Of a stretch of DNA of 64,000 nucleotides, positions 14,362-32,676 are shown one piece after another (positions within the stretch are counted from its first letter, which is position 1; every line of letters begins with the position of its first letter). The position numbers and the translations under genes were made by a program. The notes under the pieces are model-generated. The model had not been told where the DNA came from. It saw only the letters and a program-made list of their open reading frames with translations, and searched no databases. The DNA is from Nitrospirota bacterium (GTDB lineage: Bacteria > Nitrospirota > UBA9217): the NCBI GenBank assembly GCA_963790205.1, contig CAWBNQ010000001.1:416001-480000 (forward strand), written 5' to 3'.

Positions 14362-16463
14362 ATGGCAACACAAGATGTGTGCACTCTCGAACCCTATAGA
14401 CCTTACGGCGCTGACATCAAAGAAACAAGGCCCTATTCGCCGTGCCGCGCGGCATGTCCCGGCGCATACGGATGTGCAGGCCTATGTGGGCCTGATCGCC
14501 CAGGGCAAATACACCGAGGCCTTCGAGGTCATCACCTCGGTAAACCCCATCGCGTCGGTCTGCTCCATGATCTGTCACCATCCCTGCGAGCAGTCGTGCA
14601 GGCGCTGCGGTGTTGACGAGCCGCTGGCCGTCCGTCATTTGAAGCGGTTTGCCATCGAGAAGTCCAAGGACTATCGCCGCGCCAAGCGGAAGCTCGTCCA
14701 AAAGACCAGGGGCAAGAGCATCGGCATCATCGGCTCAGGCCCATCGGGCCTGACCGCAGCGCGAGACCTTGCGGACTTGGGCTACAGCGTGACCCTCTAT
14801 GAGAAGCACCCTGTCCTCGGCGGCATGCTCGCTGCCGCGATCCCTCCCTACCGTTTGCCAAGAGAAGTGTTGAAAGAAGATATTGATGACGTTATTTCAA
14901 AAGGCGTCGAGGTCAGGACGAACTTCGAGATCGGCAAAGACGCAAAGCTCGATGATCTCGCAAAGAAGCACGATGCAGTGCTCGTGGCCATCGGTCTTTC
15001 CCTCAGCCGTTCGCTGAATATTCCCGGCGTGGAAGGCCCCGGAGTGCTGCTCGCTATTCCTTACCTGGAAGATGTCGCATTCGGCCGCAAGCCTGCGCTC
15101 GGTAAGAAGGTGCTCGTTATCGGCGGCGGAAACGTTGCCATGGACGTTGCCCGGTCCGCCCGCAGGCTCGGGGTCCAGAACGTCGAGATGGTCTGTCTTG
15201 AGAACGAGCAGGAGATCCCTGCCTGGAAATGGGAAGTGGACGAGGCTGTTGAAGAGGCGATCAAGATCAATTACCGCTGGGGACCCAAGGCGATCAAGCG
15301 TGAAGGCGATAAGGTAAAGGGTCTCGAAGTCACGAAGGTATTGTCGGTCTTTGACGCGAACAAACGGTTCGCTCCGACCTTTGATAATAATGTGACCACG
15401 CTCCTTGAAGCCGACACGATCATTATCACCATCGGCCAGATGTCGAACATGGTCTTTCCTGAAAGACAGCGCGGTCAAGATCGATGAACGCGGACGCGTT
15501 GAATGGAACCCGGCGACCCAGATGAGCAGCGCAAGAAACATTTTCGTCGCGGGCGAGGTCGTGACCGGCCCCGGCTCGGCTATCGCTGCTGTCGCGAACG
15601 GACGCCGGGCTGCCCTGGCAATGCATCTCTATATTCAAGGCGAGACCATCGAGGGCAGGCTTCCTGTGCAGGAGAAGGAAAAGATCGCCGAGATGCCGTC
15701 CGAAGTTGTTGAAAAGATCAGCAAACAGCCGCGCATGAAGATCAAGCATCTCGCTCCCGAGGTCCGCGTCAAGACCATGGACCACTTCGAGATGGGATAC
15801 AGCGAGGCCGAGGCGCTTGAGGAAGCAGGCAGGTGCCGCGGCTGCGGCGGCGGGGCTGTCGTGGACCAGAAGAAGTGCATGGCCTGCCTCACTTGCTGCG
15901 CATCTGTCCTTACGGCGCGCCGGTTGTGACGTCGGTGTCCGACGATCAGGCCCGAGTACTGCCAGGCCTGCGGTCTGTGCGCTCCGGAATGTCCTGCCGA
16001 GGCCATCAGCATGGTGAGCTACGACGTGCGCGAGATCAGAAATTCACTGCCGGCGATCGTCGGCAAGATCGATCCCAAGCGACAGGAGCCGGTCATTGCC
16101 GCCTTCGTGTGTACGCACCACGCGGGCGTGCTCGGTCTCGATCTGCCGAAGAACGTTCGGGCCGTGCCCGTTCACTGCACCAGCCGGATCGATATTCTTG
16201 ATATGTTGAAGGCCTTCGAAGTCGGCGCCGACGGCGTGGCAGTCGTGCGCTGCGGGAGCGGGACCTGCAAGTACCGCGATATAGAGCCCCGGGTGAATGC
16301 GCGCGTGAAGCGGGTGCAGGACCTGCTCGGCATGCTGAAGATCGAGTCCGGGCGTCTTGAGATACTTTCCGCGGCATCAACGAATGGCGGCAATCCCTAC
16401 GCTGCCGTATGTGCTGAGTTTTCCGAACGCCTTAAACAGATAGGTCTGAGTGCTGGTAAATAA
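14362..16463 (+). pseudogene. GltD/NfnB-like FAD-FeS oxidoreductase fused to 2x[4Fe-4S] ferredoxin and MvhD/FlpD domains; 4 single-base indels, probably an intact gene with sequence errors
   Basis: Correcting +C(14458-60), +G(15451-52), -1(about 15896) and +C(15939-40) gives one 699-aa frame: SPCRAACP, ICHHPCEQSC, GSGPSG, GGGNVAMD, CMACLTCxRICP, CQACGLCAPECP, HCTSRID..KAFEVGADGV..RCGSGTCKY. Confidence 0.8.
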
Positions 16464-16503
16464 CAGCCTGCACGAATAGCATGATATAAAGGAGTAATGA
16501 ACA

Positions 16504-17205
16504 ATGATCGTAGGAACACAAAAACCAATCGAAGAAATATGGAACATGGTGAAGGACTTCAAGAAGGTCCTCGTGTTCGGGTGCAACACCTGCGTTGCCA
16601 TCTGCCATGCGGGCGGAGAAAAAGAGGCCGAGACCATTGCGTCCCTCATCAAGATGAAGGCGGCGCAGGAGGGCAAGACCATGATCGTGAACCACCTGGG
16701 GGTCATGCGCCACTGCGAGCCAGAATACTTCGAGCCCGTTATGGACGAGGTGAAGAAGTACGATCTCGTGCTTTCGACAGCCTGCGGCGTGGGCGTGAAC
16801 TTCCTGTCCGACCGGACCGGGACGATCCCCGTGTATCCGGGGATCAATACCTCATTTTACGGCGCTGTCGAAGCGCCCGGCGTGTTCAAGGAGCTTTGCG
16901 CGGGCTGCGGAGACTGCATTCTGCATTTGACCGGGGGAATCTGTCCCGTTGCGCGCTGCGCCAAGACGCTCATGAACGGGCCCTGCGGCGGCACGAACAA
17001 GGGCAAATGCGAGGTAAGCAACGAGATCGACTGCGCCTGGTACCTGATCGTAGAGCGCATGAAGAAGCTCGGCACCCTGGAAAAGCTCTCCGAGATCCAG
17101 CCGCCCAGGAACTGGTCAACGTCCCGCGACGGCGGGCCGAGGCGCATATCTCTGGAGCATATCCGGGAGTATGAGGAGAAGGAAGAGGCAAAGGCCGGGA
17201 AGTAA
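16504..17205 (+). CDS. metV: Methylene-THF reductase FeS partner subunit MetV
   Basis: GCNTCVAIC, ACGVGV, CAGCGDC, CPVARCAKTLMNGPCGG, CAW; adjacent to metF. Confidence 0.9.
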   Translation: MIVGTQKPIEEIWNMVKDFKKVLVFGCNTCVAICHAGGEKEAETIASLIKMKAAQEGKTMIVNHLGVMRHCEPEYFEPVMDEVKKYDLVLSTACGVGVNFLSDRTGTIPVYPGINTSFYGAVEAPGVFKELCAGCGDCILHLTGGICPVARCAKTLMNGPCGGTNKGKCEVSNEIDCAWYLIVERMKKLGTLEKLSEIQPPRNWSTSRDGGPRRISLEHIREYEEKEEAKAGK

Positions 17206-17214
17206 GTCTAAGAT

Positions 17215-17269
17215 CCGTTCAACCCGTTTAGCCCGTTTGAACTGTTTAAACAGTTGGAACTGTTTGAAC
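17215..17269. repeat. Six 9-bp quasi-palindromic tandem units (CnGTTYAAA family)
   Basis: CCGTTCAAC CCGTTTAGC CCGTTTGAA CTGTTTAAA CAGTTGGAA CTGTTTGAA. Confidence 0.75.
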
Positions 17270-17296
17270 CAGAAGATTAAAACCTGGAGGCTTAGG

Positions 17297-18268
17297 ATGA
17301 AGAGTGGAAGCACGCTGGAAAAAGTACTCGCGAGCGGCAAGCCCGCGGTCACGGCAGAGCTCGGCCCCCCCATGAGCGCCGATCCCCATGAGGTCATCAA
17401 GAAAGCGCAGCAGCTCAAGGGCTTCTGCGACGCGGCGAACATCACTGATTGTCAGACCGCGGTCGTCCGGATCTCGAGCATTGCCGCCGCGGCCATCGCG
17501 TTTCAGCAAGGGCTGGAGCCGGTCATGCAGATGACCTGCCGCGACCGGAACCGCATTGCCATGCAGGCCGACCTTCTCGGTGCCGCCGCGCTCGGGCTCA
17601 AGAACTGCCTCTGCCTTGCGGGCGACCACCAGAAATTCAGCGCCGCGGGAAGGCTCAAGGGCCACCCCGGCGCAAAGAACGTATACGACGTGGATACCTG
17701 CCAACTCGTCGGTATTCTCAAGAAGATGCGCGACGAGAGCAAGCAGGACGGCGGCGACCCGATCGAAGTGCCGCCCAAGTTCTTTATCGGCGCTTCCTGG
17801 ACGCCCATGGCCGACCCCATCGATTTCAGGCCGATCAATCTCATGAAGAAAGTGAATGCCGGGGCCGACTTTATCCAGACCCAGGGCATCTACGATATGG
17901 AAGGTTTCCGCGCGCAGATGGCAAAGATCCGGAACATGGGTCTTCACGAGAGGACCGCGATCCTTGCCGGTATTATCGTCCCGAAAAGCGCCATGATGCT
18001 GAAGTATATGGATTCCTCTGTTGCCGGCGTGTCGGTGCCGAAGGCCCTCATAGACCGGATGAACAAGGCCAAAGCGGCCGCAGGTGAGGACAAGAAAAAA
18101 GCCAGGGAGCTCCAGGAGCAGGAAGGCATCAAGATCACGATCGAGCTTATCCACCAGGCTTTGGAGACCCCCGGCGTAAGGGGCGTGCACATCCAGGCCA
18201 TCGAGTGGGAGAGCGCCATCGAAGGGATCGTGAAGGCTGCGGGGCTGTATCCGAGGCCCTCTTTTTGA
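17297..18268 (+). CDS. metF: Methylenetetrahydrofolate reductase MetF
   Basis: TAELGPP, NITD, TCRDRNR, AGD, KKVNAGADFIQTQ; GGAGG RBS before ATG 17297. Confidence 0.93.
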   Translation: MKSGSTLEKVLASGKPAVTAELGPPMSADPHEVIKKAQQLKGFCDAANITDCQTAVVRISSIAAAAIAFQQGLEPVMQMTCRDRNRIAMQADLLGAAALGLKNCLCLAGDHQKFSAAGRLKGHPGAKNVYDVDTCQLVGILKKMRDESKQDGGDPIEVPPKFFIGASWTPMADPIDFRPINLMKKVNAGADFIQTQGIYDMEGFRAQMAKIRNMGLHERTAILAGIIVPKSAMMLKYMDSSVAGVSVPKALIDRMNKAKAAAGEDKKKARELQEQEGIKITIELIHQALETPGVRGVHIQAIEWESAIEGIVKAAGLYPRPSF

Positions 18269-18324: not shown

Positions 18325-19125
18325 ATGCCGAAAATAACAGTTCTAGACATATATAAGAAGAAGGCCGAAGGCAAGAAGATCACCATGCTCACGGCTTACG
18401 ATTATCCCACTGCCCAGATCGTGGACCAGGCCGGCATTGATATGATACTCGTAGGCGATTCTCTCGGCATGGTGGTACAGGGAGTGACAAGCACTCTTCC
18501 GGTCACGATGGACGAGATGATCTATCACACAAGAATGGCCTCGCGCGCAGCACAATCCTCCATGGTTGTGGGCGACATGCCCTTTCTGTCGTACCAGACA
18601 AGCGCCTCCGACGCTGTTCGAAATGCCGGCCGCTTCCTGAAGGAAGCGGGTGCTGAAGCGGTGAAGCTCGAAGGCGGAAGCCAGATGGCCGACGCCATCA
18701 GGGCGATTGTGAATGCCGGGATCCCTGTTGTGGCCCATATCGGACTGACCCCGCAGTATGTCCACATGCTCGGCGGTTTTAAAGTACAGGGCAAGGATGA
18801 CGCTGCACGGGAAAAGATACTTGCCGACGCAAGGGCGGTCCAGGATGCAGGCGCGTTTTCCGTGGTACTGGAAGCAATGCCGTCCTCCCTTGCAAAAGAG
18901 ATCCATGGAATGCTCCATATCCCGACCATAGGGATCGGTGCCGGCCCTGATTGTGACGGCCAAGTCCTCGTAATTCATGACATATTAGGTCTTTTTGACC
19001 GGTTTACTCCCAAGTTCGTAAAGAAATACGCCAACCTCAAAGACCAGGCGCTGAAGGCGGTAAAAGAGTATAAGCAGGATGTAGAAGGCGGCAAATTCCC
19101 GTCCGAAGAGCACAGCTTCAAATAA
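18325..19125 (+). CDS. panB: Ketopantoate hydroxymethyltransferase
   Basis: MLTAYD, LVGDSLG, VKLEGG, HIGLTPQ, IGIGAG..CDGQVLV. Confidence 0.97.
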
Positions 19126-19249
19126 TAAGACCGACAACAAGAGTGGATTTTCGTAACAAAGGGGCAGCTACCTTTTGTAGCGCACGCATTTTTATCAATG
19201 AAATTTATAACTTAATTAAAAAATATTGTCGGCATCTTCTCAATTATTC

Positions 19250-19279
19250 TTGACTCATGAGATAGGTGTTGGATATAAT
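19250..19279 (+). promoter_or_regulatory. sigma70 promoter for thyX
   Basis: TTGACT(19250-55)-N18-TATAAT(19274-79). Confidence 0.6.
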
Positions 19280-19285
19280 ATCCTT

Positions 19286-19355
19286 CCCTTGTCATCCGTA
19301 TTTTTCCCCTTTTCTCGCTGTAAGGGTGTCGAGGGTCGCTCTGGAGAGGAGGGGA
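19286..19355 (+). promoter_or_regulatory. Structured thyX leader with two crossing helices, one masking the SD
   Basis: 19286-97 pairs with 19324-35 (11/12 including GU); 19305-16 pairs with 19344-55 (12/12 including 2 GU), covering AGGAGG. Confidence 0.45.
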
Positions 19356-19359
19356 CAAC

Positions 19360-20091
19360 ATGCCTGAAACAGCATTAAACGTGGTTCTCCTCCGGCATAC
19401 GCCGGAACCTGAGGAAGTTGTGGCAATGGCGGCAAAGCTTTGCTACAGCCCGTCTGGCGTTGAGGAGCTGAAGGGGAAGATCGAGGCCAAGGACCAGGCT
19501 GCCTTTGTGGAGAAGCTGGCGGCCATCGGACACCTGTCCCCGATCGAGCATGTTTCGTTCTCCTTTGGCATTGAGGGCATCTCCCGGGCCTGCTCTCATC
19601 AGCTTGTCCGCCATCGCGTGGCGTCTTATTCTCAGCAAAGCCAGCGCTATGTGAAGGCAGAGCAGTTCGACTATGTGATCCCTCCGAGCATCAAGCAGGA
19701 CCCGGCCCTGGTCCGTGAGTTTGAGAAGTTCATGGCCGAGGCCCAGGAGAATTACACCAAAGTCCTGAAGCGGCTCGAAGAGCTCGGGTATAAGGGCGAA
19801 GCCGGACAGCAGGACGCTCGCTATTTGCTGCCGAACGCGGCGGAGACGAAGATAGTAGTCACCATGAACGCCCGTGAGCTCCTGCACTTCTTCCGCGTGC
19901 GGTGCTGCAACCGGGCGCAGTGGGAGATCCGGGAAATGGCCGAGCGCATGCTCGCGCTCGTGAAAAAAGCGGCGCCGACGATCTTCGCCAAGTCCGGTCC
20001 CGGCTGTCTCTATGCAGCCTGTCCCGAGGGAAAGATGACCTGCGGCAAGATCGAAGAGGTCAGGAAGAAGTTCGGGGTGATGAAAGCATAG
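19360..20091 (+). CDS. thyX: FAD-dependent thymidylate synthase
   Basis: GHLSPIEH, SHQLVRHRVASYSQQSQRY, NARELLHFFRVRCCNRAQWEIR. Confidence 0.95.
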   Translation: MPETALNVVLLRHTPEPEEVVAMAAKLCYSPSGVEELKGKIEAKDQAAFVEKLAAIGHLSPIEHVSFSFGIEGISRACSHQLVRHRVASYSQQSQRYVKAEQFDYVIPPSIKQDPALVREFEKFMAEAQENYTKVLKRLEELGYKGEAGQQDARYLLPNAAETKIVVTMNARELLHFFRVRCCNRAQWEIREMAERMLALVKKAAPTIFAKSGPGCLYAACPEGKMTCGKIEEVRKKFGVMKA

Positions 20092-20156
20092 GGTTCAGCG
20101 ATCAGGGCTCAGGGTTCAGGAAATGCTCAACCCTGGACCCTATCCCCCGAACCCTG
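20090..20156. repeat. 7-bp micro-repeat cassette with inverted arms (AGGGTTC family)
   Basis: AGGGTTC AGCGATC AGGGCTC AGGGTTC ... CCCTGGA CCCTATC CCCCGAA CCCTG. Confidence 0.7.
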
Positions 20157-20169
20157 TAGTTGAGGTACC

Positions 20170-20940
20170 ATGGGTTTTACAATAGCAGTTGCAGGTAAGG
20201 GCGGCACGGGCAAGACCAGCCTGGCCGGTCTTACCATTCGATATTTGACAGAGAAAAGGCGCGGCGCGGTGCTTGCCGTTGACGCCGACGCCAATGCGAA
20301 CCTGAATGACGTGCTCGGGGTGAAGGTCCACGCAACCGTAGGCAAGCTGCGGGAGACTTCCCTCGAAGCCGTCAAGTCCACGGCCCCGCGGCCGGGCGGC
20401 ATGAGCATGGAGCAGCTCTTCGACTATCAGATCCAGCAGGCATTGGTCGAAGCAAAAGGCTTCGACCTTCTGGTGATGGGCAGGCCCGAGGGTTCGGGTT
20501 GTTACTGCGCGGCGAACAACATCATCCGCAAGTACATGGACAAGCTGGCCGACTCCTATCCCTTTACGGTCATGGACAACGAAGCCGGCCTCGAGCACCT
20601 GTCGCGACGCACAACCCAGGACACGGACCTGCTCCTTATCATCAGCGACTCCTCGGTGCGCGGCGTAATGACCGCCGGCCGTATCGGCGAGCTGGTAAAA
20701 GAACTGGACCTGAACGTCAAACGTTCGGTCCTGATCGTGAACCGCGTGCAGGACGGGACGAGTGACGACCGGTCGCTCCAGAAGGCAATCGAGCAGCAGG
20801 GCGTGGAATTCGCGGGCTTTGTTCCGGCGGACGAGCTGATCTTTGAATACGATTTGAACGGCAGGCCCCTTATCCAGCTTCCCGCTGATTCCAAAGCGTT
20901 GACGAGCTTCTATACCGTACTGGACAATTTGATCCCCTAG
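20170..20940 (+). CDS. acsF: CooC/AcsF-family Ni-insertion ATPase (second paralog)
   Basis: GKGGTGKT, DADANANL, GRPEGSGCYCAAN, DNEAGLEHLSRRT; inside the acs cluster. Confidence 0.85.
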   Translation: MGFTIAVAGKGGTGKTSLAGLTIRYLTEKRRGAVLAVDADANANLNDVLGVKVHATVGKLRETSLEAVKSTAPRPGGMSMEQLFDYQIQQALVEAKGFDLLVMGRPEGSGCYCAANNIIRKYMDKLADSYPFTVMDNEAGLEHLSRRTTQDTDLLLIISDSSVRGVMTAGRIGELVKELDLNVKRSVLIVNRVQDGTSDDRSLQKAIEQQGVEFAGFVPADELIFEYDLNGRPLIQLPADSKALTSFYTVLDNLIP

Positions 20941-20943
20941 ACT

Positions 20944-21852
20944 ATGCCCCCTAAAACGGTCGCCATCATAGGCGCAGGTCGTGTCGGCAGTTCAGTGGGG
21001 TTCCTGCTCAAGCGGGCAGGATATGCCGTCACCGCAGTAGCGGCACGAACCGCGGCGGCAGCAGAAAAGGCCTCGGCTTTTATCGGCGGGGGAGACCCTC
21101 TTGTCGATGTTATAAAGGCAGCGTCCAAAGCAGAGATCGTTTTTATCACTACGCCGGACAGGGACATTAGAGAAGTCTGCGACACGATATCAACCAACGG
21201 TGGGTTGAAGCGCGGGTCACTCGCGGTACACATGTCCGGCGCTCACTCGCTCGATCTCCTGAATGCGGCACGAAAAGCAGGTTCCTATCGGGCGGTGATT
21301 CATCCGCTCCAGTCGCTGGCGAGCAAAGAGCAGGGTATCAAGAACCTCCCGGGCTCGTACTTCCGTATCGAAGCAGACCCCGAGGCGCTGAAGACGGCGA
21401 AAGATATCGTGAAGGCGCTGGACGGCATCGAGCTGGTAATGCCGAAGTGGAGTTCAGATAAGGAGTCAGCCGCCCTCTATCACGCAGGTGCGGTCGCGGT
21501 ATCGAACTACTTCGTGGCCCTTGTTGACTACGGCTTAAAGTTTTATCAGGCGTTGGGCGCCGACAAAAAGGAGGCGTTCAACGCAGTGCTTCCGCTTATC
21601 CGGGGGACGCTTGACAATATCGAGACGCTCGGCATCCCCGACGCGCTCACCGGTCCGATCATGCGGGGCGATGTGCAGACCGTGCGCGACCACCTCGATG
21701 CCATGCAGAAGCGGACGCCGGAGCTGACGGGCCTTTATAAGGAACTGGCGCGTCAGACAGTGTCCGTGGCCAGGGACAAAGGAAGCATCACCCGGGAGAA
21801 GGCGGAGGAACTTTTGAAGCTGGTGAAAAACGAGAAAAGCCGTGAGGAGTAA
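20944..21852 (+). CDS. Rossmann-like + DUF2520 oxidoreductase (possible PanG-type ketopantoate reductase)
   Basis: IIGAGRVG, HMSGA, HPLQS, YHAGAV, ALTGPIMRGD. Confidence 0.85.
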   Translation: MPPKTVAIIGAGRVGSSVGFLLKRAGYAVTAVAARTAAAAEKASAFIGGGDPLVDVIKAASKAEIVFITTPDRDIREVCDTISTNGGLKRGSLAVHMSGAHSLDLLNAARKAGSYRAVIHPLQSLASKEQGIKNLPGSYFRIEADPEALKTAKDIVKALDGIELVMPKWSSDKESAALYHAGAVAVSNYFVALVDYGLKFYQALGADKKEAFNAVLPLIRGTLDNIETLGIPDALTGPIMRGDVQTVRDHLDAMQKRTPELTGLYKELARQTVSVARDKGSITREKAEELLKLVKNEKSREE

Positions 21853-21903
21853 GGAGTAAGGAGATTAAATCTTAAACCCTCTTCTTACACCTGATGCCTC
21901 ACG
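21841..21903. repeat. 7-bp micro-repeat cassette with inverted arms (CGTGAGG family)
   Basis: CGTGAGG AGTAAGG AGTAAGG ... TCTTACA CCTGATG CCTCACG. Confidence 0.7.
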
Positions 21904-21944
21904 AGAAGTTATAGATTCAGATTCGAAAGGAGAAGTTTCAGAAC

Positions 21945-22733
21945 ATGATAATTATCGGAGAAAAGATAAGCGTTATCGCGAAGAAAGTGCGCGAGGCCCT
22001 CACGAAGTTCGATCCCAAACCGCTCCAGGAACTGGCCGTGGCGCAGGCCAAAGCCGGCGCGAATTTTATCGACATTTCCATCGGCCCGGCCGAGGAGAAC
22101 GGCCCCAAGCTCATGGATTGGGCGGTGAAAGTCCTGCAGGAAGCGGTGGAAAAGCCGCTCTGCCTCGACACCACGAACATCAAGGCCATGGAGGCGGGTC
22201 TCAAGGCGCACAACAACGCGTGGGGAGTGCCGATCATCAATTCCACGTCCAACGAGCCGGAACGCTTCCCGATGATGGAGCTCGCGGGCAAGTACAATGC
22301 CAAGATCATCGCGCTTACCCTGGGCAAGGGCAGCATCCCCGCGGACGCCGAGGACCGCTGCGGCATTGCGGCCGAGATCATGGCCCGCGCCATGGAGAAC
22401 GGCGTGCCTATGGAGAACCTTTTCCTCGACCCCCTCATCCTCCAGCTGTGCACCATGCAGGACCAGGGGCTCCAGGCGATCAGGGCCGTCAAGATGTTCC
22501 AGCAACTGAACGATCCGCCCATGCAGACGGTAGTCGGGCTTTCCAATATTTCGAATGGCGCGCCTAAGCACGTTCGGCCCATTATCAACCGAAATTTCCT
22601 TACGATGCTCATCTACGAGGGGCTTTCGGCCGCGATCATCGACCCGCTCGATAAGGACATGATGGACACGGTCAAGACCACGGAGATGATTATGGGTAAA
22701 AGCATGTATGCCCATTCGTACCTGGACATGTAG
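21945..22733 (+). CDS. acsE: Methyl-THF:corrinoid/FeS protein methyltransferase
   Basis: MIIIGEKI, LCLDT, IINS, LFLDP, GLSNISNG, AAIIDP (pterin-binding barrel); next to acsD. Confidence 0.9.
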   Translation: MIIIGEKISVIAKKVREALTKFDPKPLQELAVAQAKAGANFIDISIGPAEENGPKLMDWAVKVLQEAVEKPLCLDTTNIKAMEAGLKAHNNAWGVPIINSTSNEPERFPMMELAGKYNAKIIALTLGKGSIPADAEDRCGIAAEIMARAMENGVPMENLFLDPLILQLCTMQDQGLQAIRAVKMFQQLNDPPMQTVVGLSNISNGAPKHVRPIINRNFLTMLIYEGLSAAIIDPLDKDMMDTVKTTEMIMGKSMYAHSYLDM

Positions 22734-22778
22734 GCTACCGTCGGCCGGCGCCGGAGACTGAACCGGTAAACGAACCCT

Positions 22779-22807
22779 TTGACATTCCGGCAGCATCACT
22801 TTATAAT
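22779..22807 (+). promoter_or_regulatory. Consensus sigma70 promoter for acsD onward
   Basis: Exact TTGACA(22779-84)-N17-TATAAT(22802-07). Confidence 0.8.
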
Positions 22808-22850
22808 ACACGGGCATTTTTCGTTTTTTACAAATAATCAGGAGGCTTTC

Positions 22851-23789
22851 ATGGCACTGGTAATACCAAAAGAAACCTACAGCGGAAAGATCTATAACGT
22901 TCAGCTCGGAGGCGGAGCAAAGGCCGTTACGATCGGGGGTGCGAACGCGCTTCCCTTCCTGGGATTCGAGGGTACGTTCCCGAACAGGACGGCCGTGGCG
23001 CTTGAGATCATGGACATTGCGCCGGATGACTGGCCCGAGACCCTGAAGAAAGCGATTGGCGGAGCATCGGCAAGCCCCGTGCAGTGGGCGAAGTTCTGCC
23101 AGCAGAGCGGCGCGGACATGGTGGCGCTCAGGCTCATGGGCACCCACCCCGACCAGCAGAACAAGAGCCCCGAAGAGGCGGCAAAGGTAGCGGCGGATGT
23201 CGCCGCAGCGATCGATATTCCGCTCATCATTCTCGGCAGCGGACAGGCCGAGAAGGACACGCAGGTGCTCCAGGCCGCTGCTGCTGCCACGCGCGGGAAA
23301 AACTGCGCTATCGGCAAGGCCGTGGAAGAGAATTACAAGACCGTAGCGGCCGCGGTCATGGCGAACGACCACAAGCTGATCGCCATGAGCCAGCTCGACG
23401 TGAACCTGGCCAAGCAGCTGAACATCCTCCTCACCCAGATGGGTTTCGACAAGGAGCGCATCATCATGGACCCCATGTCCTCGGCCCTGGGATACGGTCT
23501 CGAATATACCTACAGCGTGATGGAACGCATCCGCCTGGCGGCGCTCTTGCAGAATGATCCCATGATGCAGACTCCGATCGTTTGCGACATCGGCTTAAAC
23601 GTCTGGAAGGTCAAAGAGACCATGGCGCCTGATGCCGAGATGCCGGAATGGGGCGGCCTCGAAGACCGCGCCCTGGCATGGGAGGCGGTCACCGCTTCGG
23701 CCATGATTACGGCCGGCGCTGACCTGCTGATCATGCGTCATCCCGGCGCAGCGGCAAAGGCAAAGGAAGTCATCGCCGAGCTGATGTAA
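22851..23789 (+). CDS. acsD: Corrinoid iron-sulfur protein small subunit
   Basis: DVNLAKQLNI, IMDP..ALGYGLEY.YSVMERIRLAAL, GADLLIMRHP; GGAGG RBS. Confidence 0.95.
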   Translation: MALVIPKETYSGKIYNVQLGGGAKAVTIGGANALPFLGFEGTFPNRTAVALEIMDIAPDDWPETLKKAIGGASASPVQWAKFCQQSGADMVALRLMGTHPDQQNKSPEEAAKVAADVAAAIDIPLIILGSGQAEKDTQVLQAAAAATRGKNCAIGKAVEENYKTVAAAVMANDHKLIAMSQLDVNLAKQLNILLTQMGFDKERIIMDPMSSALGYGLEYTYSVMERIRLAALLQNDPMMQTPIVCDIGLNVWKVKETMAPDAEMPEWGGLEDRALAWEAVTASAMITAGADLLIMRHPGAAAKAKEVIAELM

Positions 23790-23795
23790 AACATG

Positions 23796-23866
23796 GAAGT
23801 TAAGAAGGTGAGAAGATAGGAATAAAACCTTTTTTCATCTTCCCCGCTTCCCAAGTTCTCAACTTC
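23796..23866. repeat. 8-bp micro-repeat cassette with inverted arms (GAAGnTRR family)
   Basis: GAAGTTAA GAAGGTGA GAAGATAG ... TCATCTTC CCCGCTTC CCAAGTTC TCAACTTC. Confidence 0.7.
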
Positions 23867-23892
23867 AGGTTTATTGAAAGGAGCACAAAATA

Positions 23893-25233
23893 ATGGCACT
23901 CTCCGGAGTCGAAATATTCAAGCATCTGCCCAAGACAAATTGCAAAAAATGCGGACACCCGACCTGTCTTGCCTTTGCCATGAAACTTGCGGCCAAGCAG
24001 GCGAGCCTCGACGCCTGCCCGGACGCGTCCGAGGACGCGAAGAAGATACTGGGCGAGTCAGCCGCTCCGCCGATCCGGGACATAACTCTCGGTGTCGGAG
24101 ACAAGGCTGTGAAGGTCGGCGGCGAGATCTGCATGTTCCGGCATGAGAAGAAATTCTTTAACCCGAACGTGTTCGCCGTTGCGATCAAGGCCTCCGAGGC
24201 CGGTGACGCCGCTGCCAGGAAGATCGAGGCGGTAAAGACCTCCGAGATCGACCGCGTCGGCCAGAAACTCAGGGTCGATGCGATTGCCGTGACCGACGAG
24301 GGCGGCGACGCAGCAAAGTTCGCTTCCGTAGTAAAGCAGGTGGTGGACGGTGCGCCCGGCGTGCCGGTCATCCTGGTCAGCAAGAACCCCGCGACCATCG
24401 AAGCTGGGATAGCGCACTGCGCTGACAAGAAGCCGCTGATCTATGCCGCGACCACGGAAAATGCCGAAGCCATGGCAAAGATCGCCAAGGAAAAGAAGGC
24501 CTCCCTGGCCATCGCAGCCGACGGGCTGGATGCGCTCACCGCCCTTTCAGAAAAGGTAAAGGCCCTCGGCATAGACGACCTGATACTCGATTCCGGCGCG
24601 CGTAAAGCAAAGGACATGATCGAACATTTTACCATTATCCGGCGTGCGGCCATCAAAAAGAATTTCAAACCCCTGGGCTATCCGGTCATCACGTTCGCTA
24701 CCCGTGACAACACGGTTGCCGAGGCCATGACCGCTGCGGTTGCAACGATGAAGTATGCCTCGATCGTCATCCTGAACAATGTCGAGAAGTGGAAGATGCT
24801 CGCGCTCCTGTCGCTCAGGCAGAACATCTACACCGACCCGCAGGTCCCGATGCAGGTCGCGCAGAACATCTACAAGGTCGGCGACGCCAAGGACAACTCG
24901 CCGCTCATGATCACCACCAATTTCTCGCTCTCGTACTTCATCGTGCGCGGCGAGGTGGAGAACAGCAAGGTGCCGTCATGGCTCGCGGTCATGGACAACG
25001 AAGGGCTCTCGGTCCTGACGGCCTGGGCCGCGGGAAAATTCACGGCAAGCAAGATCGCGCAGTTCGTGACAGAGAGCGGCGTTGAGAAGAACATCAGCCA
25101 CAAGGAGCTCATCATTCCCGGCTACGTGGCCGTGCTCTCCGGCGCGCTTGAAGAAAAGCTGCCGGGCTGGAAGATCACCGTGGGACCGCGCGAAGCGAAC
25201 CAGCTTCCGACCTTTCTGAAGGCGAGAGCGTAA
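23893..25233 (+). CDS. acsC: Corrinoid iron-sulfur protein large subunit
   Basis: LPKTNCKKCGHPTCLAFA..CP, RQNIYTDPQ, TTNFSLSYF, SVLTAWAAGKF, VGPREA. Confidence 0.96.
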   Translation: MALSGVEIFKHLPKTNCKKCGHPTCLAFAMKLAAKQASLDACPDASEDAKKILGESAAPPIRDITLGVGDKAVKVGGEICMFRHEKKFFNPNVFAVAIKASEAGDAAARKIEAVKTSEIDRVGQKLRVDAIAVTDEGGDAAKFASVVKQVVDGAPGVPVILVSKNPATIEAGIAHCADKKPLIYAATTENAEAMAKIAKEKKASLAIAADGLDALTALSEKVKALGIDDLILDSGARKAKDMIEHFTIIRRAAIKKNFKPLGYPVITFATRDNTVAEAMTAAVATMKYASIVILNNVEKWKMLALLSLRQNIYTDPQVPMQVAQNIYKVGDAKDNSPLMITTNFSLSYFIVRGEVENSKVPSWLAVMDNEGLSVLTAWAAGKFTASKIAQFVTESGVEKNISHKELIIPGYVAVLSGALEEKLPGWKITVGPREANQLPTFLKARA

Positions 25234-25243
25234 AAATAGATTC

Positions 25244-25297
25244 ACCACAGAGAGCACCGAGAAAAACTTTTTAGACTACCTCTGTAACCTCTGTGGC
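25244..25297. repeat. 9-bp micro-repeat cassette with inverted arms (ACCACAGAG family)
   Basis: ACCACAGAG AGCACCGAG ... CTCTGTAAC CTCTGTGGC. Confidence 0.75.
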
Positions 25298-25320
25298 TAA
25301 AAAGCATTTTAAAGGAGTCA

Positions 25321-27525
25321 ATGATGTCAAAAGTTATTGCCAGCGGGGCCATTCTGGGTTCCCACTACTATGTCAAGCAGGCCGAGGCGCTTGTCGAGAA
25401 GGCCATTTCCGAGAAGGGCGCGGATTTTAAATTTGAGTTTCCCGATACGGGATACTTCCTGCCGCAGATGTTCGCCATGACGGGCTTCGAGGTCCGCACC
25501 CTGGGCGATATGAAGACCGCGCTGGAGCAGCAGGTGAAGCCGCTCCTCACGGATGCGCCGGCAGACCACCTCTACAAGCCCTATCTGGGCGAAGCGCTCG
25601 ACGCGGGCATGGCGGCCCTTTTTGCCCAGGAAATGATCATGGCGATCCGGTACATCTACGGGCAGGAGCCGGTGAAGGACGATTCGATCGGCCTGACCTA
25701 CAACGGCTTCATCTCCGACACCATCCTTCGTAACCTGGGCGTGCAACTCGTGGATGGCTCCATGCCGGGGTATGTCTGCATCATCGGGGCGGCCAATGAC
25801 GACGATCACGCCCTCGAGATCGCGCGCGAACTCCAGCAGAAGAACATTCTTACGCTTATGTGCGGCAACGTGAACGGCGACAGCATGACCAAACAGCTCC
25901 TCAGGAAGGGCGTGCAACTCGGCTGGGACACGCGCCTGGTTCCCCTCGGACCGGAAGTGGAGCACGCCATCTACGCACTGAACTGGGCGGCGCGCGCCGG
26001 GATCACCTTCGGCGGCATGAAGGGCGGTGATTTCAAAAGAATCCTGAAATACTCCAAGGACAAGGTGTTCGCCTTCGCCATGGTGCTGGGCCCGTTGAAC
26101 GACCGCATCTGGACCACGGGCGCGGGCGCGATCAACATGGGCTTCCCGGCCATCGCAAACACCGACATCCCGACCATCCATCCCACGGGCGTCACGATCT
26201 ATGAAGAGGTCGCCAAAGAACTCGACCCCAAGAAGATCGTCGAAAAATGCATCGAGGTCCGTGGCCTCAAAATTACGGTCTCGAAGCCCCCCATCCCGGT
26301 CGCCTACGGCCCGGCCTTTGAGGGCGAGCGCATCCGCAAAGAAGATATGCATATCGAGTTTGGAGGCCAGCGGACCCCTGCCTTTGAATGGCTTCATACC
26401 GTGGACCTGAACAGCATCGAGGACGGCAAGGTCACGATTATCGGGAGCGATCCCGAGGCCCGGTACCAGAAGGGCGGACAGATGCCGCTCGGCGTGTACG
26501 TCGAGGTCGGGGGCCGCAAGATGCAGAAGGATTTCGAGCCTGTGCTCGAGCGCAAGATACACCACTTCATCAATGAAGCGCAGGGCATCTGGCACATGGG
26601 TCAGCGCGATCAGAACTGGTTCCGCGTCAGCAAAGCCGCGTTGAGTGAAGGATACCAGCTGCGCCATTTCGGCGACATCCTGGCAACCCAACTGAAGCAT
26701 AAGTTCAACAACATCGTAGACAAGGTGCAGGTGACTCTCTACGTGGACGAGGCCGATGTAAAATCGAAACTTGAAGAGGCCCGCAAGGCATATCTGGAGC
26801 GCGATGTCCGGCTCGCCTCCATGACGGATGAGTCCGTGGACACCTTCTACTCCTGCATCCTCTGCCAGAGCTTTGCGCCGAACCATGTGTGCGTGGTTTC
26901 CCCCGAGCGGCTCGGTCTCTGCGGGGCGTACAACTGGCTCGATGCCAAAGCGGCCTTCGAGATCGACCCGAACGGTGCGAACCAGCCCGTGATCAAGGGC
27001 GAGGTGTTGGATGACAAGAAGGGCCGCTGGAAGGGCGTGGACGAATACGTGTACACGAACTCGCACCAGGCCCTCGAGTACTTCAACGCCTACACCATCA
27101 TGGATGCACCCATGACCTCCTGCGGCTGCTTCGAGTGCATCGTGGCCATCGTGCCCGAGGCGAACGGCGTGATGGTCGTGAACCGCGGTTATACCGGCAT
27201 GACCCCCATCGGCATGAAGTTCTCCACCCTCGCGGGCACGGTGGGCGGCGGAGCGCAGACCCCGGGTTTCATGGGCATCGGCCGGTTCTTTCTTACGAGC
27301 AATAAATTTCTCTCGGCGGACGGCGGGTTCAAACGCATCGTCTGGATGACCAAGAACCTCAAAGAGTCCTTTGCCGAGGTATTCAAGAAGCGGGCCGAGC
27401 AAGAGGGTATTCCCGATCTTTTGGACAAGATCGCCGATGAGACCGTGGCTGAAGATTCGGACAAACTCATGGCTTTCCTGACAGAAAAGGGCCATCCGGC
27501 GCTCACCATGGATCCGATGTTCTAG
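25321..27525 (+). CDS. acsB: Acetyl-CoA synthase (bacterial type)
   Basis: FPDTGYFLP, AFEGERIRK, CILCQSFAPNHVC, LGLCGA, A-cluster PMTSCGCFEC. Confidence 0.97.
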   Translation: MMSKVIASGAILGSHYYVKQAEALVEKAISEKGADFKFEFPDTGYFLPQMFAMTGFEVRTLGDMKTALEQQVKPLLTDAPADHLYKPYLGEALDAGMAALFAQEMIMAIRYIYGQEPVKDDSIGLTYNGFISDTILRNLGVQLVDGSMPGYVCIIGAANDDDHALEIARELQQKNILTLMCGNVNGDSMTKQLLRKGVQLGWDTRLVPLGPEVEHAIYALNWAARAGITFGGMKGGDFKRILKYSKDKVFAFAMVLGPLNDRIWTTGAGAINMGFPAIANTDIPTIHPTGVTIYEEVAKELDPKKIVEKCIEVRGLKITVSKPPIPVAYGPAFEGERIRKEDMHIEFGGQRTPAFEWLHTVDLNSIEDGKVTIIGSDPEARYQKGGQMPLGVYVEVGGRKMQKDFEPVLERKIHHFINEAQGIWHMGQRDQNWFRVSKAALSEGYQLRHFGDILATQLKHKFNNIVDKVQVTLYVDEADVKSKLEEARKAYLERDVRLASMTDESVDTFYSCILCQSFAPNHVCVVSPERLGLCGAYNWLDAKAAFEIDPNGANQPVIKGEVLDDKKGRWKGVDEYVYTNSHQALEYFNAYTIMDAPMTSCGCFECIVAIVPEANGVMVVNRGYTGMTPIGMKFSTLAGTVGGGAQTPGFMGIGRFFLTSNKFLSADGGFKRIVWMTKNLKESFAEVFKKRAEQEGIPDLLDKIADETVAEDSDKLMAFLTEKGHPALTMDPMF

Positions 27526-30003: not shown

Positions 30004-32676
30004 ATGGCAAATCTTTCTATCAATGGCAGGAAAATTACTGTTCCCAACAATAGTACCATTCTCGACGCTGCGCGGCGAAATGACATCTATATCCCGACGC
30101 TCTGCGACGACCCGAGGCTCGAACCCTACGGCGGATGCAGGCTCTGCCTCATCCAGGTGAAAGGCATGCCCAGGCCGGTGACCGCGTGCACCACGCCGGT
30201 CACCGAGGGCATGGAAGTCGAGACCACGAACGAGCAGATCGAGCGCCAGCGCCGTACCATTGTCGAACTTCTCCTGTCCGACCATCCCAACGACTGCATG
30301 GTCTGCGAGCGGGCCGGTGACTGCACGCTCCAGGAACTGGCCTACTTCTACGAGATCCGGTCGAACCGCTTCGCCGGAGAGCGGCGACAGTATACGAAAA
30401 AGGACCTGAACCCCTTCATCGAGCGCGACATGGAGAAGTGCATACTCTGCGGCAAGTGCGTGCGCGTGTGCGACGAGATCCAGGGCCTCGGCGCGATCGA
30501 TATCGCGGGGAGGGGCTTCACCGCCAAGGTAACGCCGCCCTTTGAAAAGGACCTGGACTGCGAGTTCTGCGGCCAGTGCGTCAGTATCTGTCCCACCGGC
30601 GCGCTCATCGGCAAGCAGTCGCTCGGCAAGGGCAGGCAGAAGGACGTGAAGGAGGTCGAGACCGTCTGCGGCTACTGCGGGTGCGGGTGCAACCTCACCC
30701 TGCATGTGAGCAGGAACGAAGTGGTCCGCGTCACCTCGCGGCCGGACACGATCAACGAGGGCTGGCTCTGCGTCAAGGGACGGTTCGGATACAGCTTTAT
30801 CAACAGCCCGGACCGGCTCACGACGCCGCTCGTCAAGAAGGACGGTTTGTTCATTGAAGCGTCCTGGGACGAGGCCTTCGCCCTCATTGCCGAACGCTTA
30901 AGCGCCATCAAGGAAAAACACGGGCCCGATGCCATCGGCGGGCTCTCTTCGGCCCGGTGCACCAACGAGGAAAATTATCTTTTCCAGAAATTCATCCGCG
31001 CAGGCATCGGCACGAACAACGTCGATCACTGCGCGCGCTACTGACACAGCTCGACCGTGGCCGGTCTGGCCACCGTATTCGGTTCCGGGGCAATGACGAA
31101 CTCGATCGCCGAGATCGAGAACAACGACGTACTGTTCGTCATCGGCTCGAACACCAAGGAGAACCACCCCATCGTAGCGCTTCGGATGATCAAGGCGAAG
31201 CGCAAAGGAGCGAAGATCATCATCGCCGACCCGAGGCGGGTCCCGATGGTCCGGTTCGCGGACATCTGGATGCAGCACAAGCCCGGCACGGATGTGGCGC
31301 TTTTGAACGGGATGATGCATGTGCTCCTGAAGGAAGGCCTGGTCAAGAAGGATTTCATCTCTTCCATGACCGAAGGGTTCGATGACGAGTTCAGGAAGAA
31401 TATCGAGGACTTTACGCCCGAGGCCGCCTCGAAGATCACCGGCGTACCCGCGGACACGATCGTCAAGGCCGCGCGCCTGTACGGGAGCTCGGACCGCGCC
31501 GGTATCTACTATACGATGGGAATCACCCAGCATGCCCACGGCACGGAGAACGTGTTCTCCATCGCCAATCTCGCGCTCATGACCGGAAACCTCGGCAAGG
31601 AGGCTGCCGGCGTCAACCCGCTCCGCGGACAGAACAATGTCCAGGGCGCCACGGACATGGGATGCATCCCGAACATGTATCCCGGATACCAGCGCGTGAA
31701 CATACCGGCGATCCGGGAGAAGTTCGAGGCCCTGTGGAAGGCAAAGCTCTCCGAAAAGGAGGGGCTTACCGCCACGGATATGCTTCCGGCCGCGGAAAAA
31801 GGCATCATCAAGGCCCTGTACATCATGGGAGAAAATCCGGTCATCAGCGATCCCGACGTTGCCCATACCACCAAGGCGCTCAAGGCGCTCGATTTCCTCG
31901 TCGTGCAGGACATCTTCATGACCGAAACGGCCGCGCTTGCGCATGTCGTATTGCCCGCCTCATCGTTCGCGGAGAAGGTCGGGACGTTCACGAACACCGA
32001 GCGGAGGGTTCAGCGCGTGAGAAGGGCGGTCAACTCCCCCGGGGACGCGATGAAGGACTCGCTCATCATCATGGAACTCTCGAAGCGGATGGGCTACGAA
32101 ATGTCCTATCCGCATACCGTCGAGATCTTCCGCGAGATCGGACAGGCCTGGCCCGCGATGGCGGGGATGAGCTATGCCAGGCTCGAGGACGGCGGCCTCC
32201 AGTGGCCCTGTCCCACGCCGGAACATCCGGGAACGCAGTTCCTGTTCAAGGGCGGATTCCCGCGCGGCAAGGGCAGGCTTACGCTCGTGAAATACAAACA
32301 GTCGGTTGAGCTTACTGACAAGGACTATCCGTTCATCTTGACCACGGGGCGGCAGTTGTTCCAGTACCACACCGGCGGCATGACGCGCCGGGTAAAGCCG
32401 ATCAACACGGTCTCGCCGGAGTCCTACGTCGAGATCAACCCAGATGATGCCCGGTCCCTTTCAATCAAGGGCGGATCGAACGTGAAGGTGAGCTCGCGCA
32501 GGGGTTCCATTACCGTGAAGGCGTTGGTGTCGAAGAGGCCGGCAAAAGGCGTCGTGTTCATACCCTTCCACTTCAAGGAAGCGGCGGCCAATGTGCTTAC
32601 GAGCAGCAGCTCCCTCGATCCCATAGCCAAGATCCCGTCGTTCAAGGTCTCGGCGGTGAGGATCGAAAAGGCGTAA
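30004..32676 (+). CDS. fdhA: Selenocysteine formate dehydrogenase alpha subunit with NuoG-like N-terminal FeS domains (890 aa by UGA read-through)
   Basis: ORFs 30004-31044 and 31057-32676 share a frame across TGA 31042-44: DHCARY-U-HSSTVAGL..FGSGAMTN; RGQNNVQG; CGYCGCGC. Confidence 0.93.
31045..31076 (+). promoter_or_regulatory. Bacterial SECIS element
   Basis: GTGGCC-GGTCT-GGCCAC hairpin (31057-31073) starting 12 nt after the UGA; loop resembles the E. coli fdhF SECIS. Confidence 0.85.

What the first reader, a model, noticed from the sequence alone, without database searches (positions are those of the whole stretch)
14362..18268. Single-chain flavoprotein-ferredoxin-MvhD fusion directly upstream of metVF: possible new MTHFR coupling module
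Seen: the indel-corrected 699-aa protein has a GltD/NfnB-like FeS+FAD core, two CxxCxxCxxxCP motifs and a four-Cys MvhD-like C-terminus. Knowledge: MetVF partners with HdrABC-MvhD in Moorella thermoacetica and with RnfC2 in Acetobacterium woodii; neither HdrBC nor RnfC2 is encoded in this window. After GGGNVAMD the usual YRR NADPH motif is replaced by acidic CLENEQE. Inference: an NADH-preferring donor module, possibly bifurcating given the NfnB-like core.
Basis: partly seen in the sequence, partly recalled or inferred. Interest (0 to 1): 0.7.

Follow-up and report, generated by a model that had tools for sequence, protein, structure and literature searches.

The report
NADH wire replacing Hdr beside MetVF
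One 699-residue flavin and iron-sulfur protein, likely broken here only by assembly errors, sits where sister genomes carry the four-gene Hdr partner of methylene-tetrahydrofolate reductase, and it likely feeds that enzyme NADH electrons through a plain wire without electron bifurcation, which would be a subunit make-up outside the four described types.

Summary
Four one-base indels break a 699-aa GltD-ferredoxin-MvhD gene before metV-metF. Intact orthologs exist, and near-identical short-read contigs keep the frame at all four sites, so these are probably assembly errors.

metV follows the gene in 73 of 79 related loci; the other 6 end at contig edges. In a 54-genome class sample, 28 carry it, 19 carry orthologous hdrB, and none carries both. 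All 20 close-metV genomes lacking it have hdrA in the same slot. MetV and MetF trees split by partner type.

The protein resembles the GltD insert of Moorella-type HdrA, with the same acidic CLE motif. It lacks HdrA's bifurcating flavin domains. Its FAD-proximal cluster has the lysine of non-bifurcating StnC/NfnA, not NfnB's glutamate. Best reading: a linear NAD(H)-to-MetVF module; bifurcation is not supported.

Against: two genomes keep it away from metVF, and 6 of 13 copies in a second phylum sample are unlinked. Binding and activity are untested. Seven literature searches found no description. This scan noted the architecture before on other genomes. New variant, interest 0.6.

The parts
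14362..16463 (+). Gene X: GltD-like FAD/2x[4Fe-4S] module + 2x[4Fe-4S] ferredoxin domain + MvhD-like domain, 699 aa, with four one-base indels in this assembly
   Evidence: model of an intact ortholog pLDDT 94.5, pTM 0.93
14437..15848 (+). GltD-like module of the StnC/NfnA/HdrL-insert type; its RCxxC cluster motif lies after the FAD domain, not at the N-terminus
14642..14644 (+). Lys94, aligned to StnC K170 and Tsi NfnA K165 (ligand of the FAD-proximal cluster); Glu in bifurcating NfnB/NfnL
   Evidence: K in 53 of 53 X-like sequences
15194..15214 (+). Acidic CLENEQE at the place of the YRR motif of NADPH-type GltD
   Evidence: the genome's own NfnB has YRR
15858..16013 (+). Two-cluster ferredoxin domain, 41-43% identical to the C-terminal ferredoxin domain of HdrA
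16116..16445 (+). MvhD-like domain with four invariant cysteines (predicted [2Fe-2S])
   Evidence: Pfam PF02662; 65 of 65
16504..17205 (+). metV, 233 aa, 13 cysteines
   Evidence: PF12225; no relative among solved structures
17297..18268 (+). metF, 323 aa
   Evidence: PF02219
12247..14246 (+). Upstream flank of the slot: cooC-like ATPase, 5-formyl-THF cyclo-ligase, folE
18325..27525 (+). Downstream flank: panB, thyX, cooC-like ATPase, DUF2520 Rossmann protein, acsE, acsD, acsC, acsB (Wood-Ljungdahl cluster)

Best explanation
Gene X encodes a single-chain flavin/iron-sulfur protein that occupies the slot of hdrCBA-mvhD before metVF and likely serves as the NAD(H) module of MetVF, passing electrons along a predicted unbranched wire without bifurcation. 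Shown: the architecture, the link to metVF, the either-or occupation of one slot, and the split of MetV/MetF trees by partner. Inferred steps: (1) NADH gives a hydride to the FAD of the GltD module; the acidic CLE motif would disfavour NADPH. (2) Electrons would go singly through the Lys-ligated cluster and the second GltD cluster to the two ferredoxin-domain clusters and the MvhD [2Fe-2S]; the order of the last two is not known. (3) The ferredoxin-MvhD end would dock MetV as MvhD and HdrA do in the Hdr type. (4) MetF would reduce methylene-THF. The reaction would be exergonic by about 23 kJ/mol. In reverse, for acetyl-CoA oxidation in these dsr-bearing organisms, it would need product removal by FolD, as described for the RnfC2 type. 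It would work like type III (RnfC2-MetVF) while being built from type IV parts.
For: Linkage: metV downstream on the same strand in 73 of 79 loci, 63 within 300 bp; the 6 others end 0-1095 bp after the gene (the best 79 of 158 matches). Slot swap: of 46 genomes with a metV at least 62% identical, 26 have X and all 20 others have hdrA before metV. Six of those 20 have a 1476-1492 aa HdrA, and a GltD insert was confirmed in the 5 aligned; hdrC-hdrB is visible in 18, and two contigs begin inside hdrA. Class sample of 54: X in 28 (26, plus two frameshifted copies), orthologous hdrB in 19, no genome with both, 7 with neither (86-89% complete). Both states occur within genera g17 and g19. MetV (47 rows) and MetF (43 rows) trees split by partner (support 0.88, 0.98); cooC, ygfA, folE and panB trees do not. 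One state change on the metVF tree against three on the flank tree (31 rows). The link recurs with divergent metVF in two other branches of the family. Residues 26-514 are 35-39% identical to the GltD insert of long HdrA, CLE motif included. The Lys ligand and the absence of HdrA flavin domains argue for a non-bifurcating flavin.
Against: G073 and G111 carry a full-length X (64-65% identical) among unrelated genes, while their metVF follows hdrCBA-mvhD. In a 401-genome sample of a second phylum only 7 of 13 full-length copies lie beside metV (2 candidates scored per genome). The AU test did not reject a single X clade on the flank genes (p 0.103), so repeated swapping is suggested, not proven, and kin are not independent. 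NADH preference rests on a motif rule and on Moorella data; the motif in Moorella HdrA itself was not checked. Two distant metVF-linked members have YRR, so the donor varies in the family. No activity data and no RNA data exist here.
Confidence: 0.65

Rival explanations
1. X-MetVF bifurcates: the GltD flavin would split NADH electrons between methylene-THF and ferredoxin, or join reduced ferredoxin and methyl-THF electrons to reduce NAD+.
For: It replaces a cassette proposed to bifurcate (PMC8760232, PMC13391211, passages). R164, aligned to the flavin arginine of NfnB, is invariant. The hosts encode dsrA (51 of 54), and oxidising methyl-THF with NAD+ is endergonic.
Against: Lys instead of Glu at the proximal cluster. 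The arginine is also present in non-bifurcating StnC and NfnA. Best sequence and fold matches are NfnA and StnC. No second-branch subunit was recognised among conserved neighbours.
Confidence: 0.08
2. X is a general NAD(H):ferredoxin or NAD(H):carrier oxidoreductase that serves MetVF indirectly through a soluble carrier or serves other enzymes, so MetVF stays a type II enzyme.
For: Unlinked copies in G073 and G111 and in 6 of 13 cases in a second phylum. Type II MetVF uses reduced ferredoxin in vitro (PMC8760232, passages).
Against: Tight linkage, either-or occupation of the slot and MetV/MetF sorting by partner fit a dedicated partner better. NADH-to-ferredoxin transfer without bifurcation is uphill (established knowledge).
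Confidence: 0.14
3. Same wire, but the donor is NADPH or both nucleotides.
For: All solved close relatives of the module bind NADPH. 15 of 53 X-like sequences have YRR. The nucleotide-binding motif is GGGNVA (GxGxxA), which PMC12054007 links to NADP+ (passages).
Against: CLE is invariant in 65 of 65 close orthologs and places an acid where YRR binds the 2'-phosphate (recalled rule). The long HdrA inserts of the same slot have CLE, and Moorella HdrA oxidises NADH.
Confidence: 0.08
4. This genome's copy is a true pseudogene; the family is real but this strain lost the module.
For: Four indels in 2.1 kb while metV, metF and the acs genes of the window are intact.
Against: Contig pieces with 3 differences in 272, 11 in 646 and 1 in 154 letters keep the frame at all four places in two runs of one study. 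12 of 112 tested orthologs change frame in this assembly, 9 after setting aside this gene and two shadow ORFs. dsrA and a CO dehydrogenase-family gene are split too. No Hdr substitute is in the genome.
Confidence: 0.05

Closest known systems
Type IV MTHFR, HdrCBA-MvhD-MetVF of Moorella thermoacetica and Sporomusa ovata (PMC9430772, PMC8760232, passages; Mock et al. 2014 not held)
   Same: metVF preceded by an MvhD domain and an HdrA-type C-terminal ferredoxin domain; the Moorella-type HdrA holds a GltD insert like X's N-terminal module; sister genomes carry this cassette in the same slot.
   Different: X has no thioredoxin-reductase-like HdrA flavin domains, no HdrB or HdrC, and is one chain. 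Its GltD module is not sister to the HdrL inserts of the same slot in the tree, so it looks like a displacement rather than a deletion on the spot.
Type III MTHFR, RnfC2-MetV-MetF of Acetobacterium woodii (as summarised in PMC8760232, passages)
   Same: Three genes; one added subunit would supply the NADH site; predicted to run without bifurcation.
   Different: The added subunit is a GltD-type FAD module with ferredoxin and MvhD domains, not an RnfC-like FMN protein.
StnC of Sporomusa ovata and NfnA of NfnABC (PDB 8oh5, 9n5u, 9bov; PMC10482914, PMC12018979, passages)
   Same: Best sequence and fold matches; Lys-ligated FAD-proximal cluster; RCxxC after the FAD domain; a flavin described as a non-bifurcating entry point.
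   Different: They bind NADPH (YRR) and feed a HydBC-like core through a NuoG domain; X has CLE and ends in ferredoxin-MvhD.
NfnB/NfnL of NfnAB (PDB 4ylf, 5jca)
   Same: Homologous FAD and two-cluster fold.
   Different: Glu-ligated cluster, YRR and a partner NfnA; the genome has its own separate nfnAB.
HdrL, HdrA-glutamate synthase fusions (PMC2702500; type III HdrA in PMC12054007; passages)
   Same: GltD module coupled to MvhD-associated chains and proposed to use NADH.
   Different: HdrL keeps the HdrA flavin domains; X does not.

Membership tests
Type IV (Hdr-type) MTHFR | metV and metF in one cluster with an MvhD | tested here: met
   MvhD domain fused in X; metV 40 bp downstream
Type IV (Hdr-type) MTHFR | HdrA with thioredoxin-reductase-like flavin domain(s) | tested here: not met
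   X matches HdrA only at the C-terminal ferredoxin domain and a short Rossmann stretch; HdrA motifs absent; only Qmo-type HdrA homologs in the genome
Type IV (Hdr-type) MTHFR | HdrB and HdrC | tested here: not met
   No HdrB hit in G000; none in 28 of 28 X-bearing class genomes
Type III (RnfC2) MTHFR | rnfC2 next to metVF | tested here: not met
   The only RnfC over cut-off lies in an rnf operon on C5
Type III (RnfC2) MTHFR | Direct NADH:methylene-THF activity | not testable with these tools
   Needs an enzyme assay
Type II (MetVF alone) MTHFR | No dedicated partner gene beside metVF | tested here: not met
   X precedes metV in 73 of 79 loci
Bifurcating NfnAB/NfnSL | Glu ligand on the FAD-proximal [4Fe-4S] cluster | tested here: not met
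   Lys94 in 55 of 55; Glu in 4ylf_B, 5jca_L and the genome's NfnB
Bifurcating NfnAB/NfnSL | Arg hydrogen-bonded to FAD N5 | tested here: inconclusive
Bifurcating NfnAB/NfnSL | NfnA partner gene alongside | tested here: not met
   None recognised among ORF clusters of the 79 loci, judged from the printed cluster list; separate nfnAB on C1
StnC/NfnA-type non-bifurcating GltD module | Lys-ligated proximal cluster and RCxxC after the FAD domain | tested here: met
StnC/NfnA-type non-bifurcating GltD module | NuoG-like domain and HydBC-like partner | tested here: not met
   No such domain in X; no nuoE/F hit within up to 8 kb in 79 loci; not tested beyond 8 kb
HdrL | GltD module inserted in HdrA | tested here: not met
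   X has the module without HdrA

The most novel reading that the evidence does not exclude
X-MetVF is an Hdr-free, three-protein electron-bifurcating methylene-THF reductase in which a Lys-tuned GltD flavin couples NADH, methylene-THF and ferredoxin, letting sulfate-reducing Nitrospirota conserve energy at this step or drive methyl-THF oxidation.
Probability: 0.08. Interest if true: 0.85.

Novelty: new variant of a known kind. Interest (0 to 1): 0.6.

Why it matters
The electron donor of MetVF-type reductases is an open question, and a July 2026 paper still lists four types (PMC13391211, passages). A three-protein version that swaps with the six-protein Hdr version in one genomic slot is a natural control. 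It would show what GltD, ferredoxin and MvhD do without the Hdr flavins, and so where the unexplained coupling of the Moorella enzyme lies. It is small enough to express. It also bears on genome screens: one survey assumed HdrABC is present whenever MetF, MetV and MvhD are (PMC6085437, passages), whereas 28 genomes here have MvhD-MetVF and no orthologous HdrB hit. Energy budgets for these dsr-bearing Nitrospirota would differ by partner type.

Tried and rejected
Complex prediction of MetF + MetV + X residues 496-697 returned 'no answer': score 0.61 with one control at 0.44; it is no evidence either way. No RNA holder was listed. The metagenome scan used generic Rossmann patterns and read 1 of 64 parts; of its 80 loci I annotated 5, chosen for long matches; two held a full-length X-like gene, one without metV nearby and one at a contig end. 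Names and taxa for the distant family members could not be obtained. Origin by deletion from the HdrL of the same slot was rejected: the modules are not sisters (FastTree, weak deep support). A link between partner type and sulfate reduction was rejected: dsrA is in 51 of 54 genomes of both types. 'Type V' hits in two papers were unrelated word matches. Mock et al. 2014 is not held. Appel et al. 2021 on HdrA modules was seen only in reference lists, and no supplements were read; either could mention this architecture.
Full report
Observation. The region 14362-16463 has no single long ORF; its pieces lie in shifting frames. A DNA search of 41 genomes found full-length matches in the window's family. 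Of the 14 relative loci fetched, 13 hold a complete 688-700 aa ORF and one is cut by a contig end. Aligning 9 of these genes with the window places four one-base indels near 14457, 15451, 15895 and 15943. Read through with X at the breaks, the gene gives 699 residues, 83% identical to an ortholog. Pfam on two intact orthologs gives Fer4_20, Pyr_redox_2, Fer4 twice and FlpD. metV and metF follow at 40 and 91 bp, each behind a GGAG-type site. The cluster continues with panB, thyX, acsE, acsD, acsC, acsB, a NuoEF-linked formate dehydrogenase and fhs.

The breaks are probably assembly errors. Contig pieces from two runs of one study, with 3 differences in 272, 11 in 646 and 1 in 154 letters, keep the frame at all four places. 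They need not be the source strain. In this assembly 12 of 112 tested orthologs change frame; 9 remain after setting aside this gene and two shadow ORFs. dsrA and a CO dehydrogenase-family gene are also split.

Distribution and linkage. The genome scan kept the best 79 loci of 158 matches; nearly all record titles are Nitrospirota MAGs, plus one Syntrophobacterales, one deltaproteobacterial, one unclassified and one betaproteobacterial label. metV lies downstream on the same strand in 73 of 79, within 300 bp in 63; the other 6 loci end 0-1095 bp after the gene. A FolD-like gene (name recalled from its sequence, not scanned) occurs in 30 of the 79 loci, in the gap between folE and X where I looked.

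The slot swap. In a 151-genome phylum sample, 46 genomes have a metV at least 62% identical to the window's. Of these, 26 have full-length X. I fetched the metV region of all 20 others: every one has hdrA before metV, with hdrC-hdrB visible in 18. Six have a 1476-1492 aa HdrA; the five aligned carry a GltD insert. The other 14 have an approximately 1018 aa form without it, some partial or frameshifted. A separate mvhD with an in-frame TGA was seen in 5 of 5 translated. In the 54 genomes of the class, X is in 28, an orthologous hdrB in 19, none has both and 7 incomplete genomes have neither. Genera g17 and g19 hold both states. MetV and MetF trees split cleanly by partner (support 0.88 and 0.98); within one genus MetV is 89.5% identical for the same partner and 71.0% for different partners, against 90.0 and 89.0% for cooC. 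Trees of cooC, ygfA, folE and panB show no clean split, though ygfA identities also drop between partner types (76 against 62%). On 31 genomes the state changes once on the metVF tree and three times on the flank tree, but the AU test does not reject one X clade on the flank genes (p 0.103). Repeated swapping is therefore suggested, not proven.

Results against. G073 and G111 have a full-length X, 64-65% identical, away from metVF, which there follows hdrCBA-mvhD. Among 401 genomes of a second phylum, 13 had a full-length copy; 7 lie beside metV-metF and 6 do not, and two of those six lack MvhD cysteines. So the family is not bound to MetVF everywhere. On the other side, five of the seven linked copies are only 35-46% identical to X, fall in two other branches and sit beside divergent metVF. 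A search of 1.84 billion representatives shows dozens of clusters with the same architecture (53 rows classed X-like, seven of them my own loci).

What the parts are. Residues 26-514 are 35-39% identical to the GltD insert of the long HdrA, and residues 504-552 are 41-43% identical to HdrA's C-terminal ferredoxin domain. [quoted passage not shown] X has none of those domains. In trees of the GltD module, the main X clade nests among CLE-type modules that include HdrL inserts but is not sister to the inserts of the same slot (deep support weak). X is therefore best seen as a separate family that displaced the Hdr cassette.

Bifurcation. The best solved matches by sequence and fold are NfnA and StnC. 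Both papers describe their FAD as a non-bifurcating entry point whose nearest cluster has a lysine ligand, where NfnB has glutamate (PMC10482914, PMC12018979, passages). X's Lys94 aligns to that lysine and is invariant in 55 of 55 orthologs. The genome's own NfnB has Glu and YRR. PMC12018979 cautions that the meaning of the ligand is unclear, so this lowers bifurcation without excluding it. No NfnA-like or NuoEF-like partner appears among conserved neighbours.

Nucleotide. CLE is invariant in 65 of 65 close orthologs and shared with the long HdrA inserts. That an acid here selects NADH is a recalled rule. The GGGNVA motif is the form that PMC12054007 links to NADP+ (passages), and 15 of 53 X-like sequences have YRR, so NADH is likely, not shown.

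Mechanism. Inferred: NADH, FAD, two GltD clusters, two ferredoxin clusters and the MvhD [2Fe-2S] form one wire to MetV and MetF. MvhD is a known docking site for donor modules (PMC6085437, passages), and Sporomusa MvhD and HdrA pull down MetF. The genome has dsrAB, aprAB-qmo, Rnf and NfnAB, and dsrA is in 51 of 54 class genomes, so the pathway may run either way. Methyl-THF oxidation with NAD+ costs 23 kJ/mol and is pulled by methylene-THF dehydrogenase in the RnfC2 type (PMC13391211, passages).

Novelty. Four MTHFR types are listed in 2021 and again in July 2026. Seven searches of the open-access library and passages of 14 papers showed no description of a GltD-ferredoxin-MvhD chain beside metVF. 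I read passages only, no supplements; subscription papers are not covered. All parts are known and the GltD-to-MvhD-to-MetVF idea is contained in the Moorella complex, so this is a new variant rather than a new kind. This scan has noted the same architecture before on other genomes (7 of the 8 notes shown); those notes are not evidence, and the phrase 'fifth type' comes from one of them.

Verdict. Real and conserved; most likely a non-bifurcating NAD(H) module of MetVF (0.65); bifurcating 0.08. Interest 0.6.

Noticed in passing
L250:4038-6134 (G073) and L252:629-2722 (G111), with L251 and L253: Genomes holding both a stand-alone X and an hdrCBA-mvhD-metVF cluster whose HdrA (about 1012 aa) lacks the GltD insert; X could be an alternative or in-trans NADH module.
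   Followed up: partly
L243:5304-7424 and L244:7150-9270: metVF-linked X-like proteins with YRR instead of CLE, flanked by regulator-like and sensor-like genes: a possible NADPH version under two-component control.
   Followed up: partly
L240 and L245: Two metV-metF pairs facing each other across a sensor/regulator block, one behind an X-like gene and one behind a [NiFe]-hydrogenase large subunit (L240:15247-15999).
   Followed up: partly
L241:7219-9264 and L242:7324-9369: X-like proteins with a degenerate MvhD end, convergent with a carbon-nitrogen hydrolase and a trimethylamine methyltransferase (MttB) gene; no metV within the fetched region.
   Followed up: no
L133 and L134 (G001): One genome carries two copies of the cooC-ygfA-folE-X-metV-metF-panB-thyX cluster on different contigs (contamination 5%).
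   Followed up: no
window 30004-32676: Formate dehydrogenase alpha subunit split in frame at a stop near 31042-31044, as expected for selenocysteine; it follows nuoE- and nuoF-like genes. The codon and SECIS were not checked.
   Followed up: no
L098, L099, L102, L103, L113 (mvhD before metV): The separate MvhD of the Hdr-type cassette has an in-frame TGA at a cluster ligand (probable selenocysteine), whereas X has cysteine there.
   Followed up: partly
window 18325-21852: panB, thyX and a DUF2520 Rossmann protein sit inside the Wood-Ljungdahl cluster between metF and acsE in many relatives.
   Followed up: no
L131:726-2510 and L132:5468-7297: Other Nitrospirota carry a 595-610 aa GltD-ferredoxin protein without MvhD, behind a CBS-like gene and before Rieske/cytochrome b-like genes (names recalled from sequence).
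   Followed up: no
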